From Escherichia phage vB_EcoM_G4507, in the sequence record NC_054919.1: DNA of 64,000 nt. The stretch is one strand, 5' to 3'. The notes below the pieces were generated by a model. It saw only the letters and a program-made list of their open reading frames with translations, searched no databases and was not told the DNA's origin. The position numbers were made by a program, and so were the translations under genes. Below are positions 37,178-38,192 of this stretch, one piece after another; position 1 is the first letter of the stretch, and each line of letters opens with the position of its first letter.

Positions 37178-37253
37178 TGGTCGAGGCAGTAGGGATCGAA
37201 CCTACGACCCAGGACTTAGAAGGTCCTTGCTCTTCCTTCTGAGCTATGCCCCG
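37178..37253 (-). tRNA. tRNA-Arg (anticodon UCU)
   Basis: Cloverleaf folded by hand; anticodon loop CUUCUAA; GGTTCGATCC T-arm; CCA encoded. Confidence 0.8.
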
Positions 37254-37257
37254 TAAT

Positions 37258-37333
37258 TGGGGTGACCGATGGGAGTCGAACCCATGACTACGAGAATCAC
37301 AATCTCGAGTTCTACCAACTGAACTACGGCCAC
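37258..37333 (-). tRNA. tRNA-His (anticodon GUG)
   Basis: Hand fold; anticodon loop UUGUGAU; T-arm GGGTTCGACTCCC; not present in T4. Confidence 0.65.
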
Positions 37334-37447
37334 ATTAATACCTACTCCAACAATCATGATGTCTTCACACGAAATTAAGAGAAGAGTGATCAGTTCAACC
37401 CCTATAATCGCGTCAAGTAGATATTAATGTGACAGTTGTCACAAATT

Positions 37448-37522
37448 TGGCGGACGTGATAGGATTCGAACCTATAACCAATCGCTTAACAGGCGATCGC
37501 TCTGCCATTGAGCTACACATCC
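37448..37522 (-). tRNA. tRNA-Asn (anticodon GUU)
   Basis: Hand fold; anticodon loop CUGUUAA; T-arm GGTTCGAATCC; not present in T4. Confidence 0.65.
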
Positions 37523-37526
37523 AAAT

Positions 37527-37613
37527 TGGTGGGGAGTGATGGAGTCGAACCACCCGAGTCGCAATGACAATGAATTTACAGTCCACATCGCTACCTCTAC
37601 GGGATAACTCCCC
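37527..37613 (-). tRNA. tRNA-Tyr (anticodon GUA), type II with extra arm
   Basis: Anticodon loop CUGUAAA; 7-bp acceptor; T-arm TTCGACT; D-arm atypical. Confidence 0.5.
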
Positions 37614-37619
37614 TTAATT

Positions 37620-37694
37620 TGGTGGCCCTGGGTGGAATTGAACCACCATCTGGCGATTATGAGTCGCTTGCTTGAACCTTCCAGCTACAGGGCC
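37620..37694 (-). tRNA. tRNA-Ile (anticodon CAU, probably modified) or Met
   Basis: Anticodon loop CUCAUAA; immediately follows tRNA-Thr as in the T4 Thr-Ile dimeric precursor. Confidence 0.65.
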
Positions 37695-37695
37695 T

Positions 37696-37771
37696 TGGTG
37701 CTGATTGACGGAATCGAACCGCCGACCTTCTCATTACAAGTGAGTTGCTCTACCTACTGAGCTAAATCAGC
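37696..37771 (-). tRNA. tRNA-Thr (anticodon UGU)
   Basis: Anticodon loop CUUGUAA; clean cloverleaf. Confidence 0.8.
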
Positions 37772-37776
37772 AAAAC

Positions 37777-37866
37777 TGGCGGAGGCGATAGGATTTGAAC
37801 CTATGAGTCGCCGGAGCGACTGCCGGTTTTCAAGACCGGTGCATTAAACCACTCTGCCACGCCTCC
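37777..37866 (-). tRNA. tRNA-Ser (anticodon UGA), type II
   Basis: Matches T4 tRNA-Ser; anticodon loop CUUGAAA; long variable arm. Confidence 0.85.
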
Positions 37867-37868
37867 AG

Positions 37869-37942
37869 TCTCCATACAAGGATTTGAACCTTGGACCTCC
37901 TGATCCCAAATCAGGCGCTCTACCAAACTGAGCTACACGGAG
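37869..37942 (-). tRNA. tRNA-Pro (anticodon UGG)
   Basis: Anticodon loop UUUGGGA; 2 nt from tRNA-Ser (Pro-Ser dimeric precursor as in T4); CCA not encoded. Confidence 0.8.
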
Positions 37943-37952
37943 TAAATTAAAT

Positions 37953-38026
37953 TGGAGCGGATAATGAGAATCGAACTCACATCATCAGATTGGAAGTCTG
38001 AGGTAATGCCATTATACGATATCCGC
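37953..38026 (-). tRNA. tRNA-Gly (anticodon UCC)
   Basis: Anticodon loop CUUCCAA. Confidence 0.75.
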
Positions 38027-38031
38027 AAATT

Positions 38032-38118
38032 TGGTGCGAGAAGTGAGACTCGAACCCACAAGGAAATAATTCCGCAGCATTTTAAGTGCTGTGCCTTTAC
38101 CAATTTGACCATTCTCGC
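38032..38118 (-). tRNA. tRNA-Leu (anticodon UAA), type II
   Basis: Matches T4 tRNA-Leu; anticodon loop CUUAAAA. Confidence 0.85.
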
Positions 38119-38119
38119 G

Positions 38120-38192
38120 CTGGGAATAAAGGACTCGAACCTTTGCATCCTGGAATCAAAATCCAGTGCCTTACCAACTTGGCTAATTCCCA
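38120..38192 (-). tRNA. tRNA-Gln (anticodon UUG)
   Basis: Matches T4 tRNA-Gln; 1 nt from tRNA-Leu (Gln-Leu dimer); CCA not encoded. Confidence 0.85.

What the first reader, a model, noticed from the sequence alone, without database searches (positions are those of the whole stretch)
37178..38192. Expanded 11-gene tRNA cluster (adds Tyr, Asn, His) with no homing-endonuclease insertion
Hand folding gives Gln-Leu, Gly, Pro-Ser and Thr-Ile in the arrangement known for T4 dimeric precursors, followed by Tyr(GUA), Asn(GUU), a 114-nt spacer, His(GUG) and Arg(UCU). T4 as I recall it encodes eight tRNAs with segB inserted in the cluster. Here three extra isoacceptors are present and no ORF interrupts the array. 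The spacer at 37334-37447 contains a short palindrome GTGACA-GT-TGTCAC.
Basis: partly seen in the sequence, partly recalled or inferred. Interest (0 to 1): 0.5.

Follow-up and report, generated by a model that had tools for sequence, protein, structure and literature searches.

The report
T2-type phage tRNA operon, structured His leader
The eleven tRNA genes are real, but this cluster is a common, already annotated variant in T4-like phages; the one new-looking point is that the 114-base "spacer" holds a conserved folded RNA sitting directly in front of a histidine tRNA that lacks the usual extra 5' G.

Summary

About 190-270 Tequatrovirus genomes carry the same cluster, several with the same 11 tRNAs annotated. 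Its Ile2-Tyr-Asn-Arg block plus the trna.2 ORF is the phage T2 allele described in 2008. That allele lacks segB and is the preferred SegB homing target.

A 116-aa ORF, then the stable RNAs rnaD and rnaC, then a terminator-like hairpin follow tRNA-Arg. So an ORF does interrupt the full RNA operon.

The part worth a second look is the "spacer". Bases 37334-37428 form a 95-nt three-way-junction RNA closed by a 14-bp stem whose last pair uses nucleotide -1 of tRNA-His.
- It is conserved with compensatory changes in at least six Tevenvirinae genera, always abutting tRNA-His.
- It has no Rfam match and is absent from T4, T2 and T6.
- Its position and architecture match T5 "RNA III", a stable RNA of unknown function.
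- Every phage tRNA-His I read lacks an encoded G-1.
- His codons are not enriched in the window.

The parts
38262..38290 (-). Putative MotA-dependent middle promoter (ATATGCTTTAAG, 12 nt, TATTAT) upstream of tRNA-Gln
   Evidence: Read by eye against the T4 middle-promoter consensus, which I know from memory. The sequence is identical in T4. PMC2330249 states that the T4 cluster is transcribed from a middle promoter just upstream of it. Not tested here.
38119..38192 (-). tRNA-Gln (UUG), directly abutting tRNA-Leu (dimeric precursor type)
   Evidence: ARAGORN; Rfam 67 bits; 0-nt gap to Leu. The anticodon arm differs from T4, T2 and T6.
38032..38118 (-). tRNA-Leu (UAA)
   Evidence: 85/87 identical to T4.
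37953..38026 (-). tRNA-Gly (UCC)
   Evidence: 73/74 identical to T4.
37868..37942 (-). tRNA-Pro (UGG), no encoded CCA, 1 nt before tRNA-Ser
   Evidence: identical to T4.
37777..37866 (-). tRNA-Ser (UGA)
   Evidence: identical to T4 and T2.
37696..37771 (-). tRNA-Thr (UGU)
   Evidence: 73/76 identical to T4. Absent from T2.
37620..37694 (-). tRNA with CAU anticodon, Ile2 (lysidine) type, T2 allele
   Evidence: ARAGORN calls it Met. Best E. coli match is annotated tRNA-Ile at 81.6%. 75/75 identical to T2 and only 51/74 to T4 tRNA-Ile.
37527..37613 (-). tRNA-Tyr (GUA), long variable arm
   Evidence: ARAGORN; weak in Rfam; 86/87 identical to T2 and 85/87 to T6. The T6 gene counters Septu (PMC13096335).
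37448..37522 (-). tRNA-Asn (GUU); carries the preferred SegB cleavage site described for T2L
   Evidence: 75/75 identical to T2; GGTTCGAATCC motif at 37462-37472; PMC2330249.
37429..37442 (-). Its 3' arm, UGUCAC, is conserved in several genera and is complementary to tRNA-His nt 1-5.
   Evidence: RNAfold; conservation and 5-bp extension; competing fold.
37334..37428 (-). Conserved structured RNA (His-leader element, 95 nt). P1 is a 14-bp closing stem whose last pair uses nt -1 of tRNA-His. P2 is a long arm. P3 is a 4-bp hairpin with the loop UCAUGAU.
   Evidence: blastn conservation across genera. Fold z-score -3.7. Pair counts: 98.3% of cells paired, against 35-49% when the partners are slid, and 9 of 18 pairs changed on both sides. 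RNAalifold gives the same helices. The covariance model scores 106 bits here, finds untrained relatives, and finds nothing in T4, T2 or T6. No Rfam match.
37258..37333 (-). tRNA-His (GUG) with G1:C72, C73 and an encoded CCA, but U rather than G at position -1
   Evidence: The E. coli tRNA-His query aligns only from its position 2 in all T4-like hits.
37178..37253 (-). tRNA-Arg (UCU), T2 allele
   Evidence: 75/76 identical to T2 and 53/75 to T4.
36809..37159 (-). 116-aa ORF, the homologue of T2L trna.2, function unknown, with a GAGG ribosome-binding site
   Evidence: 112/116 aa identical to T2. Matches primer #24 of PMC2330249 with one mismatch. phrog_3355, unknown function. No Pfam family.
36697..36811 (-). 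rnaD (species 2 stable RNA) homologue
   Evidence: blastn to T4 71168-70825 at 91%; local alignment; T4 annotation.
36553..36690 (-). rnaC (species 1 stable RNA) homologue, tRNA-like; ARAGORN miscalls it as a 94-nt tRNA-Lys
   Evidence: T-arm motif at 36565-36575. No Rfam tRNA hit there.
36479..36502 (-). Intrinsic-terminator-like hairpin followed by a U run, ending the RNA operon
   Evidence: PMC2330249 states that T4 transcription ends after the species I RNA gene.

Best explanation
This is the tRNA/stable-RNA operon of a Tequatrovirus (T4-like phage), in its common segB-less, T2-like form.

One minus-strand transcription unit runs from the middle promoter upstream of tRNA-Gln to the terminator after rnaC. 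In order it carries Gln-Leu, Gly, Pro-Ser, Thr-Ile2, Tyr, Asn, a 95-nt structured RNA, His, Arg, the trna.2 ORF, rnaD and rnaC.

Host RNase P and 3' processing enzymes cut the precursor into mature tRNAs. This step is inferred from what is known for T4.

Ten of the tRNAs read codons that the phage uses 1.5-5.8 times more often than E. coli does. At least tRNA-Tyr also serves as a spare part when host defences cut host tRNA; this was shown for the near-identical T6 gene.

Because the allele has no segB and carries the T2 tRNA-Asn gene, it would be the recipient, and the loser, in SegB-driven homing during co-infection with T4.

Relative to T2, the Asn-His interval is one inserted module made of the structured RNA plus tRNA-His. 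The structured RNA is most likely released from the precursor as a discrete stable RNA. [quoted passage not shown] Alternatively, or in addition, it controls the 5' maturation of this G-1-less tRNA-His.
For: - Gene calls.
- Identity of the window: 99.7% to phage ECP52; 271 records cover at least 80% of the region; the same 11 tRNAs are annotated in G29.
- Maps of T4, T6 and T2.
- Module identity to T2: CAU 75/75, Tyr 86/87, Asn 75/75, Arg 75/76, trna.2 protein 112/116. Against T4, the CAU and Arg tRNAs are only about 70% identical.
- rnaD and rnaC homologues at 91% identity; terminator; promoter sequence identical to T4.
- Codon ratios: AGA 5.8x, GGA 3.0x, AUA 3.0x, Tyr 1.6x, Asn 1.6x, but His 0.74x.
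- SegB motif GGTTCRANTCC: 10 matches in the window, 9 of them in the RNA operon (8 in tRNA genes, 1 in rnaC), against 0.09 expected by chance. SegB biology is from PMC2330249. The tRNA-Tyr anti-Septu role is from PMC13096335.
- Leader element: conserved at 76-100% in 354 records from several genera. Strong covariation support. The covariance model hits untrained genera and misses T4, T2 and T6.
- T5 annotates the stable RNA rnaIII abutting its own tRNA-His, and it has the same terminal-stem architecture.
Against: - No expression or RNA-end data exist for this phage. Co-transcription and processing are inferred from T4 and T5.
- The promoter call is by eye only.
- Codon supply does not explain tRNA-His.
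- For the leader, the covariation rests on about 10-20 distinct sequences that are phylogenetically related.
- The internal P2 domain is variable, and in phages PEi20 and AsFcp_1 the leader is reduced to a bare hairpin. The large three-way junction may therefore not be the functional core.
- There is no detectable sequence similarity to T5 RNA III.
Confidence: 0.88

Rival explanations
1. One reading: a novel, expanded tRNA cluster peculiar to this phage, in which the 114-nt interval is a plain spacer that happens to contain a palindrome.
For: Compared with T4 alone, three extra tRNAs and no segB are indeed seen.
Against: The same cluster occurs in hundreds of sequenced phages and is annotated in GenBank. 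The T2L form was published in 2008 (PMC2330249). The interval is conserved across genera with compensatory base changes, which a neutral spacer would not show. All other gaps in the cluster are 0-10 nt.
Confidence: 0.03
2. The leader is a cis-acting processing device specific to tRNA-His. The P1 helix reaches nucleotide -1. In class II phages, the upstream GUCAC also pairs with tRNA nt 1-5. Together these set where or when RNase P or RNase III cuts. For example, the cut might leave a 5' nucleotide (U-1) that substitutes for the missing G-1, or it might gate maturation.
For: - The element abuts tRNA-His in every genus, whatever tRNA lies upstream: Asn here, Gln elsewhere.
- The only part present in all relatives is the helix next to +1.
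- All these tRNA-His genes lack G-1 but keep C73.
- The T5 GenBank feature for tRNA-His includes the U at -1.
- RNAfold predicts that the class II leader sequesters the acceptor 5' strand, with P(G1:C72) = 0.01.
Against: - In STP4-a the element persists without tRNA-His.
- U at -1 is simply the common RNase P-preferred leader base (general knowledge).
- RNAfold ignores tRNA tertiary structure.
- There is no covariation for the GUCAC:GUGGC extension.
- No biochemical data exist.
Confidence: 0.35
3. The leader is an independent stable small RNA, a counterpart of T5 RNA III and of T4 rnaC and rnaD. It merely uses the flanking tRNAs as processing signals and has a trans function of its own, such as a decoy or an anti-defence role.
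For: - T5 RNA III is annotated as a stable RNA in the same position and with the same closing-stem architecture.
- In class I phages the element fills the gap between the CCA of tRNA-Gln and +1 of tRNA-His to within 1 nt.
- P2 and P3 show compensatory changes, so they are also under selection.
- The element survives the loss of tRNA-His in STP4-a.
Against: - P2 is swapped or rebuilt between lineages, and P3 is replaced in phage Merlin.
- PEi20 and AsFcp_1 keep only a hairpin.
- No target or partner is known.
- No sequence homology to T5 RNA III.
Confidence: 0.4
4. The interval is a scar or a miniature mobile element: terminal inverted repeats of a MITE-like insertion, or a remnant of a lost homing-endonuclease gene.
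For: - It is flanked by 14-bp inverted repeats and is present or absent as a block relative to T2.
- tRNA clusters are hot spots for homing-endonuclease genes. Karamvirus CW742 has one right after tRNA-His, and T4 and T6 have segB.
Against: - The stems contain many U-G pairs that work on only one strand.
- Double compensatory changes preserve pairing, which points to selection on RNA rather than on DNA ends.
- The covariance model finds a single copy in the 64-kb window.
- There is no remnant of a nuclease ORF.
Confidence: 0.04
5. The interval encodes a small hydrophobic peptide: the ORF 37244-37357, MIVGVGINVAVV..., which starts at the ATG in the P3 loop.
For: An ATG preceded by a weak GAAG sits in a conserved stretch. 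In STP4-a the frame gives a 22-aa hydrophobic peptide.
Against: - The ATG is TTG in G29-type phages and in Serratia CBH8.
- The loop is replaced in Merlin and shortened in L037.
- The frame runs through the tRNA-His gene.
- Substitutions follow base-pairing rather than codon periodicity.
Confidence: 0.02

Closest known systems
Phage T2/T2L tRNA gene region (EMBL AJ880101; Brok-Volchanskaya et al. 2008, PMC2330249; T2 genome AP018813)
   Same: No segB. The tRNA(CAU), Tyr, Asn and Arg genes are identical or nearly identical (75/75, 86/87, 75/75, 75/76). The trna.2 ORF lies between Arg and rnaD (112/116 aa identical). The Gln-Leu-Gly-Pro-Ser block is the same.
   Different: T2 has the trna.1 ORF in place of tRNA-Thr. 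In T2, Asn is followed by Arg after 4 nt, so T2 lacks both the structured leader and tRNA-His. The window's tRNA-Gln also has a different anticodon arm.
Phage T4 tRNA region (eight tRNAs, segB, rnaD, rnaC)
   Same: Same genomic position between trna.2/ipI and the e.* genes. Gln through Thr are 96% identical overall. Identical upstream promoter sequence. rnaD and rnaC are 91% identical.
   Different: T4 has segB between Ile and Arg, has divergent Ile and Arg alleles (about 70% identity), and lacks Tyr, Asn, His, the leader and the trna.2-type ORF.
Phage T6 tRNA-rich region (Chihara et al. 2026, PMC13096335)
   Same: Carries a tRNA-Tyr that is 85/87 identical. That gene neutralises Septu when expressed at a higher level.
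   Different: T6 keeps segB next to Tyr, which drives amplification. It lacks Pro, Ser, Asn, His and the leader.
Annotated Tequatrovirus genomes such as vB_EcoM_G29 (MK327940), EC121, HP3, wV7 and ACG-C40
   Same: The same 11 tRNAs in the same order, the same 114-nt interval (98-100% identical), and the same downstream ORF.
   Different: Only point differences, for example UCUUGAU instead of UCAUGAU in the P3 loop of G29. None of the features listed for these records annotates the interval. Some call rnaC 'tRNA-Lys'.
Phage T5 RNA III (rnaIII, 'stable RNA with unknown functions') upstream of T5 tRNA-His
   Same: An RNA of about 100 nt ending directly at tRNA-His. It has a 13-bp stem formed by its two ends that closes a multibranch, with a small hairpin before the 3' strand. 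T5 tRNA-His also has U rather than G at -1 and keeps C73.
   Different: No detectable sequence similarity, and a different phage family (Demerecviridae). Homology versus convergence is not resolved.

Membership tests
T-even phage tRNA/stable-RNA operon | Cluster of tRNA genes on one strand at the conserved position between the trna.2/trna.3/ipI genes and the e.* genes | tested here: met
   blastn synteny with T4; annotations; gene calls.
T-even phage tRNA/stable-RNA operon | Species 2 (rnaD) and species 1 (rnaC) RNAs downstream of tRNA-Arg, followed by a terminator | tested here: met
   91% identity to T4 rnaD and rnaC at 36470-36809; terminator-like site at 36479-36502. Here they are separated from Arg by an ORF.
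T-even phage tRNA/stable-RNA operon | Co-transcription from an upstream middle promoter and processing by host RNase P and RNase BN | not testable with these tools
   The promoter sequence is identical to T4. The process itself is known only from the T4 literature (PMC2330249).
T2L-type segB-less allele | Absence of segB together with presence of tRNA(CAU), Tyr, Asn, Arg and the trna.2 ORF | tested here: met
T2L-type segB-less allele | trna.1 ORF between Ser and tRNA(CAU), and Asn directly followed by Arg | tested here: not met
   The window has tRNA-Thr instead of trna.1, and has the leader plus tRNA-His between Asn and Arg. It is therefore a mosaic relative, not the T2L allele itself.
SegB homing target | GGTTCRANTCC T-loop motif and the preferred 27-bp site inside the T2L tRNA-Asn gene | tested here: met
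   10 motif matches in the window against 0.09 expected, 9 of them in the RNA operon. The tRNA-Asn gene is identical to T2's. Actual cleavage and homing were not tested.
Free-standing homing endonuclease insertion (seg/mob type) | An ORF with a GIY-YIG or HNH domain inside the cluster | tested here: not met
   No ORF inside 37178-38192 has protein-family support. The 116-aa ORF has no Pfam family and falls in an unknown-function PHROG.
Canonical bacterial tRNA-His | GUG anticodon and C73 discriminator | tested here: met
Canonical bacterial tRNA-His | Genome-encoded G-1 pairing with C73 (8-bp acceptor stem) | tested here: not met
   Position -1 is U in the window and in every Straboviridae and T5 tRNA-His examined.
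tRNA-Ile2 (lysidine-dependent AUA reader) | CAU anticodon with C4:G69 and C5:G68 acceptor pairs, and similarity to host ileX rather than metT | tested here: met
   Sequence. The best E. coli hit is annotated tRNA-Ile. The TilS determinants are recalled from the literature. The lysidine modification itself is not testable here.
T5 RNA III-like stable RNA | [quoted passage not shown] | tested here: met
T5 RNA III-like stable RNA | Sequence or profile homology to T5 rnaIII | tested here: not met
   The covariance model built on the window's element (R1) finds nothing at rnaIII with filters off. blastn with rnaIII finds only T5-like phages.
T5 RNA III-like stable RNA | Accumulates as a discrete stable RNA in infected cells | not testable with these tools
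   Needs a northern blot or RNA-seq.
Any Rfam 15 family (for the 114-nt interval) | A match to a curated covariance model | tested here: not met
   No hit overlapping 37334-37447 even at E-values up to 10. None for T5 rnaIII either.

The most novel reading that the evidence does not exclude
The 95 nt directly upstream of tRNA-His (37334-37428) are an undescribed RNA family, widespread in T4-like phages (Straboviridae), with T5 RNA III as a positional and architectural counterpart.

Its terminal helix, which runs up to nucleotide -1, is functionally coupled to a phage tRNA-His that, unlike its hosts' tRNA-His, has no encoded G-1. It might dictate an unusual 5' cleavage or gate maturation.

If so, these phages would make and use a tRNA-His by a route that differs from the host rule of G-1:C73 with RNase P cutting at -1. 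That route might yield a defence-resistant or differently charged tRNA-His.
Probability: 0.4. Interest if true: 0.65.

Novelty: already known. Interest (0 to 1): 0.35.

Why it matters
It is the common segB-less allele of the T-even tRNA operon, already sequenced hundreds of times. Its biology is understood: codon supply, spare tRNAs against tRNA-cutting defences, and being a target of SegB homing.

The by-product matters more. An interval that none of the listed GenBank records annotates holds a structured RNA with clear compensatory evolution, and it is tied to the only tRNA whose 5' end normally needs special handling. The classical model phages T4, T2 and T6 lack it, which may be why it has gone unstudied.

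It offers a concrete handle on three questions:
- What the long-known but unexplained T5 RNA III does.
- How coliphages use a tRNA-His that lacks the main HisRS identity element.
- Why tRNA-His is kept when His codons are not in excess demand.

Tried and rejected
1. Degenerate tRNA in the spacer. ARAGORN and Rfam find nothing there, and the fold is a three-way junction rather than a cloverleaf.
2. Promoter or terminator in the spacer. There is only one weak plus-strand promoter-like match, within chance expectation, and no terminator.
3. Paralogue of rnaC or rnaD. No similarity, and the folds differ. The covariance model gives one hit only in the window.
4. Small ORF starting in the P3 loop. 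The start codon and loop are not conserved, and the frame runs through the tRNA.
5. MITE or inverted-repeat scar. Rejected because of one-strand G-U pairs and compensatory changes.
6. Hammerhead-like ribozyme. The junction strands are only 1-3 nt long, so there is no catalytic core (checked by eye).
7. The idea that the invariant palindromic loop UCAUGA mediates loop-loop kissing. Weakened because the loop is UCUUGAU in G29 and CBH8 and is replaced in Merlin.
8. ARAGORN's 12th 'tRNA-Lys'. It is the rnaC homologue.
9. IMG/VR and metagenome scans added only a few new variants.
10. Literature searches for a described T4-like His leader, or for phage tRNA-His lacking G-1, found nothing. The library lacks most of the older T5 papers, so this is weak evidence of absence.
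11. Pfam and PHROGs gave no function for the three neighbouring ORFs.
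Full report
**1. Observation**

ARAGORN on the whole window reports 11 minus-strand tRNA genes between 37178 and 38192.

Rfam's tRNA model independently scores ten of them at 54-74 bits. The exception is tRNA-Tyr, a type II tRNA with a long variable arm, which gets only a weak tRNA-Sec match. It is nevertheless 86/87 identical to the T2 tRNA-Tyr gene and 85/87 to the T6 gene. The T6 gene was shown by northern blot and by genetics to be expressed and functional (PMC13096335).

ARAGORN labels the CAU tRNA 'Met'. Its best E. coli relative is annotated tRNA-Ile, and it has the C4:G69 and C5:G68 pairs. 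From memory, its anticodon stem-loop is identical to that of E. coli tRNA-Ile2.

Gaps between genes are 0-10 nt. They include the 0, 1 and 1 nt spacings of the classical T4 dimeric precursors Gln-Leu, Pro-Ser and Thr-Ile. The only exception is Asn to His, which is exactly 114 nt. The palindrome is there.

**2. What the locus is**

The window is a Tequatrovirus. The region 36400-38400 is 99.7% identical to Escherichia phage ECP52. It is covered at 80% or more in 271 phage records. Records such as vB_EcoM_G29 annotate the same eleven tRNAs in the same order. The arrangement is therefore already in the databases many times over.

Cluster maps of the classical T-even phages and the window:

| Phage | Order of genes |
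|---|---|
| T4 | Gln Leu Gly Pro Ser Thr Ile, segB, Arg, rnaD, rnaC |
| T6 | Gln Leu Gly Thr Met(CAU) Tyr, segB, Arg |
| T2 | Gln Leu Gly Pro Ser, trna.1 ORF, Met(CAU) Tyr Asn Arg, trna.2 ORF, then the region homologous to rnaD/rnaC (not annotated in that record) |
| Window | Gln Leu Gly Pro Ser Thr Ile2(CAU) Tyr Asn, leader, His Arg, trna.2 ORF, rnaD, rnaC |

The T2L form was sequenced and described in 2008 (PMC2330249).

The window is a mosaic. Gln through Thr is 96% identical to T4 overall. The CAU and Arg tRNAs are only about 70% identical to T4's, but they are 75/75 and 75/76 identical to T2's. Asn is 75/75 and Tyr 86/87 identical to T2. So the cluster is not 'T4 plus three genes'. The whole Ile-to-Arg block is the alternative T2-type module.

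**3.

Right after tRNA-Arg comes a 116-aa ORF (36809-37159) with a good ribosome-binding site. It is 112/116 aa identical to the T2 ORF that PMC2330249 calls trna.2. It has no Pfam family and belongs to an unknown-function PHROG.

After the ORF come homologues of T4 rnaD (about 36697-36811) and rnaC (36553-36690), at 91% identity. A terminator-like hairpin follows at 36479-36502.

ARAGORN's 12th gene, a 94-nt 'tRNA-Lys' at 36552-36645, lies inside rnaC. It is a miscall of that tRNA-like stable RNA. Some GenBank records repeat the error.

So 'no ORF interrupts the array' is true only within 37178-38192. In the full RNA operon an ORF sits between tRNA-Arg and rnaD, and those two are adjacent in T4.

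The sequence upstream of tRNA-Gln, including a MotA-box/-10 arrangement, is identical to T4. PMC2330249 states that the T4 cluster is transcribed from that middle promoter through to the end of species I RNA.

**4. How it most likely works**

Processing of the polycistronic precursor by host RNase P and 3' enzymes is inferred from the T4 literature. I did not test it.

The E. coli frequencies used for comparison are recalled from memory.

| Group | Codons | Phage use relative to E. coli |
|---|---|---|
| The eight 'T4-type' tRNAs | A-ending codons (AGA 5.8x, GGA 3.0x, AUA 3.0x, UCA 2.9x, ACA 2.7x, UUA 2.1x, CAA 1.6x, CCA 1.5x) | 1.5-5.8x |
| Tyr | UAU + UAC | 1.6x |
| Asn | AAU + AAC | 1.6x |
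| His | CAU + CAC | 0.74x |

Codon supply therefore fits ten of the eleven tRNAs but not tRNA-His.

A second, experimentally supported role is as spare tRNAs against tRNA-cutting defences. T6 tRNA-Tyr, 85/87 identical to the window's, neutralises Septu when expressed at a higher level (PMC13096335).

Finally, the allele is a SegB target. The SegB core motif GGTTCRANTCC occurs 10 times in the window against 0.09 expected by chance. Nine of these are in the RNA operon: eight in tRNA genes and one in rnaC. The tRNA-Asn gene, which holds the preferred 27-bp SegB site in T2L, is identical to T2's (PMC2330249). In a co-infection with T4 this block would be expected to be replaced by the T4 version.

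**5. The 'spacer' is a conserved structured RNA**

Relative to T2 (Asn, 4 nt, Arg), the window carries one extra block: the 114-nt interval plus tRNA-His.

*Conservation.* A blastn search with the interval alone finds 354 phage records. Besides Tequatrovirus at 95-100% identity, it finds:
- Jiaodavirus (Klebsiella phages);
- Karamvirus (Enterobacter, Klebsiella, Citrobacter and Aeromonas phages);
- Gelderlandvirus (Salmonella phages) at 76-90% identity.

Searches with the divergent copies add Roskildevirus (Erwinia IT22) and Winklervirus (Serratia CBH8). A sequence-pattern scan of viral contigs adds a contig of the same length as Citrobacter phage Merlin, taken to be Merlin (Moonvirus genus assignment from memory). 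In every one of these phages except STP4-a, the element ends exactly at +1 of tRNA-His, although the upstream neighbour differs: Asn here, Gln elsewhere.

*Fold.* RNAfold gives -32.7 kcal/mol with a z-score of -3.7.
- P1 is a 14-bp stem formed by the two ends of 37334-37428. Its last pair is A:U(-1).
- P2 is a long arm.
- P3 is a 4-bp hairpin with the loop UCAUGAU.

*Covariation.* I counted pairs on ten distinct sequences. P1 and P3 are paired in 98.3% of cells, against 35-49% when the partners are slid by 1-3 columns. Nine of 18 pairs show changes on both sides. None of 500 shuffles reached the observed values. The second pair of P3 appears as A-U, U-A, G-C and C-G. Many U-G pairs work only on the tRNA-sense strand.

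RNAalifold predicts the same three helices on full-length sequences. A covariance model built from eleven sequences gave these results:
- 106 bits for the window copy;
- no second copy in the 64-kb window;
- nothing in the T4, T6 or T2 loci;
- sequences it was not trained on recovered from other genera, at E-values from 1e-11 to 5e-4.

Rfam 15 has no match even at E-values up to 10.

*Variation inside the element.* The interior is variable. P2 is swapped between two versions (AGGGG/CUCUU and GGCAG/CUGCU stems), rebuilt in others, and P3 is replaced in Merlin. In Edwardsiella phage PEi20 and Aeromonas phage AsFcp_1 only a simple hairpin next to tRNA-His remains. [quoted passage not shown]

**6. 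tRNA-His is the odd one**

The gene has G1:C72, C73 and an encoded CCA, but U at -1. In E. coli and most bacteria, G-1 is encoded in the gene. It pairs with C73, is retained by an unusual RNase P cut, and is the main HisRS identity element (PMC9976931, PMC11143913).

Every Straboviridae tRNA-His I read has U at -1 and keeps C73. An E. coli tRNA-His query aligns to the T4-like hits only from its position 2.

Three oddities therefore coincide on one insertion module: low codon demand, a missing G-1, and a dedicated structured leader.

There are two leader classes.
- Class I: P1 starts 1 nt after the CCA of tRNA-Gln.
- Class II (including the window): the conserved UGUCAC just before P1 can pair with tRNA-His nt 1-5, extending the helix to 19 bp.

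RNAfold then prefers leader-tRNA pairing over the acceptor stem: P(G1:C72) is 0.01 in class II against 0.98 in class I. This is a thermodynamic prediction that ignores tertiary structure.

This suggests, but does not show, an insulating or switching role.

**7. A known counterpart in T5**

The T5 GenBank record annotates rnaIII, a 106-nt 'stable RNA with unknown functions'. It ends exactly where tRNA-His begins.

T5 tRNA-His likewise has U rather than G at -1, and the annotators included that U in the tRNA feature. T5 rnaIII folds with a 13-bp stem formed by its two ends, closing a multibranch with a small hairpin before the 3' strand (z-score -3.1). This is the same layout as the window element.

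There is no detectable sequence similarity. The covariance model finds nothing with filters off, and blastn with rnaIII finds only T5-like phages. Rfam has no family for it. I therefore treat it as the closest known analogue, not as a demonstrated homologue. It does support the idea that the window element is excised as a discrete stable RNA, with its 3' end made by RNase P.

**8. Rivals for the interval**

- A small ORF starting at the ATG in the P3 loop is rejected. The ATG is TTG in G29-type and Serratia phages, the loop is replaced in Merlin, and the frame runs through the tRNA gene.
- A MITE or endonuclease scar is unlikely, given the one-strand G-U pairs, the compensatory changes and the single copy.
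- A degenerate tRNA, a promoter or a terminator is not supported.
- Between 'cis processing device for tRNA-His' and 'independent stable RNA' I cannot decide. The first is favoured by the invariable adjacency and by the fact that only the abutting helix is universal. The second is favoured by T5 RNA III, by selection on P2 and P3, and by STP4-a, which keeps the element after losing tRNA-His. The two are not exclusive.

**9. Verdict**

The finding as written is confirmed, but it is ordinary. It is a known, widespread, already annotated allele of the T-even tRNA operon, and its lack of segB makes it the textbook homing recipient.

Its interest lies in a by-product. The 'spacer' is an apparently undescribed, covariation-supported RNA element coupled to a G-1-less tRNA-His. 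It is absent from T4, T2 and T6 and is paralleled by T5 RNA III.

'Undescribed' rests on three things. Rfam has no match. The features listed under the interval in the GenBank records I examined do not annotate it; the few that do show the flanking tRNA-Gln or a hypothetical protein. Searches of the held literature were negative. Older T5 and T-even papers are mostly not in that library.

Noticed in passing
window 36552-36645 (within rnaC, 36553-36690): ARAGORN calls a 94-nt 'tRNA-Lys(ttt)' here, and some GenBank records (for example G29) annotate it as such. It is the homologue of T4 species 1 RNA (rnaC), a tRNA-like stable RNA with a canonical T-arm. The Rfam tRNA model gives no hit.
   Followed up: yes
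window 37258-37333, and tRNA-His in L005-L041 and T5 L042: Every Straboviridae tRNA-His examined, and T5's, lacks a genome-encoded G-1 (U at -1) but keeps C73. G-1 is the main identity element for E. coli HisRS. I found no paper noting this for phages.
   Followed up: partly
window 38119-38192: The tRNA-Gln of the window (and of G29) is identical to that of T4, T2 and T6 except for the anticodon arm. The arm is replaced wholesale with full compensation (ACUGGA-UUUUGAU-UCCAGG versus AUAGCA-CUUUGAC-UGCUAG). The loop is thereby changed from C32/C38 to the E. coli-like U32/U38. This may be relevant to anticodon-nuclease evasion or to modification.
   Followed up: partly
window 37258-37613: The three 'extra' tRNAs (Tyr GUA, Asn GUU, His GUG) all have G34-U35 anticodons. 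With Asp, they form the queuosine family that colicin E5-type anticodon nucleases cut (from memory). Relatives in other genera also carry Asp(GUC). This hints at selection by a defence that targets GUN anticodons. Not tested.
   Followed up: no
window 38580-38960: A 126-aa ORF (phrog_4301, unknown function, no Pfam family) is inserted between the homologues of T4 trna.2 and trna.3. It is absent from T4 and from G29.
   Followed up: partly
window 35953-36426: A 157-aa ORF (phrog_2280, unknown function) lies in about 520 bp that T4 lacks, between the rnaC terminator and the e.8 homologue. A similar terminator-like hairpin sequence recurs on both sides of it, and G29 annotates two terminators there.
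   Followed up: partly
L007 (Salmonella phage STP4-a) 2507-2600: This Gelderlandvirus keeps the leader element (103 bits with model R1) but has lost tRNA-His behind it. Its relative CF-SP2 (L012) has both.
   Followed up: partly
L016 (Enterobacter phage CW742) 701-1290: An annotated homing endonuclease gene starts about 55 nt after tRNA-His, and the encoded CCA of that tRNA is lost. So the His locus is a homing-endonuclease insertion site in a relative.
   Followed up: no
L042 (phage T5) 6285-6645, 7809-7980, 8839-9084 and 16849-17567: T5 annotates eight 'stable RNAs with unknown functions' in its tRNA region. Two of them (rnaIII before tRNA-His, rnaX before tRNA-Arg) end exactly where a tRNA begins. 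None has an Rfam family in the stretch I scanned.
   Followed up: partly
window 63288-63298: There is one further exact match to the T-loop/SegB motif GGTTCAAATCC far from the tRNA cluster. ARAGORN predicts no tRNA there, and it appears to lie in coding sequence.
   Followed up: no
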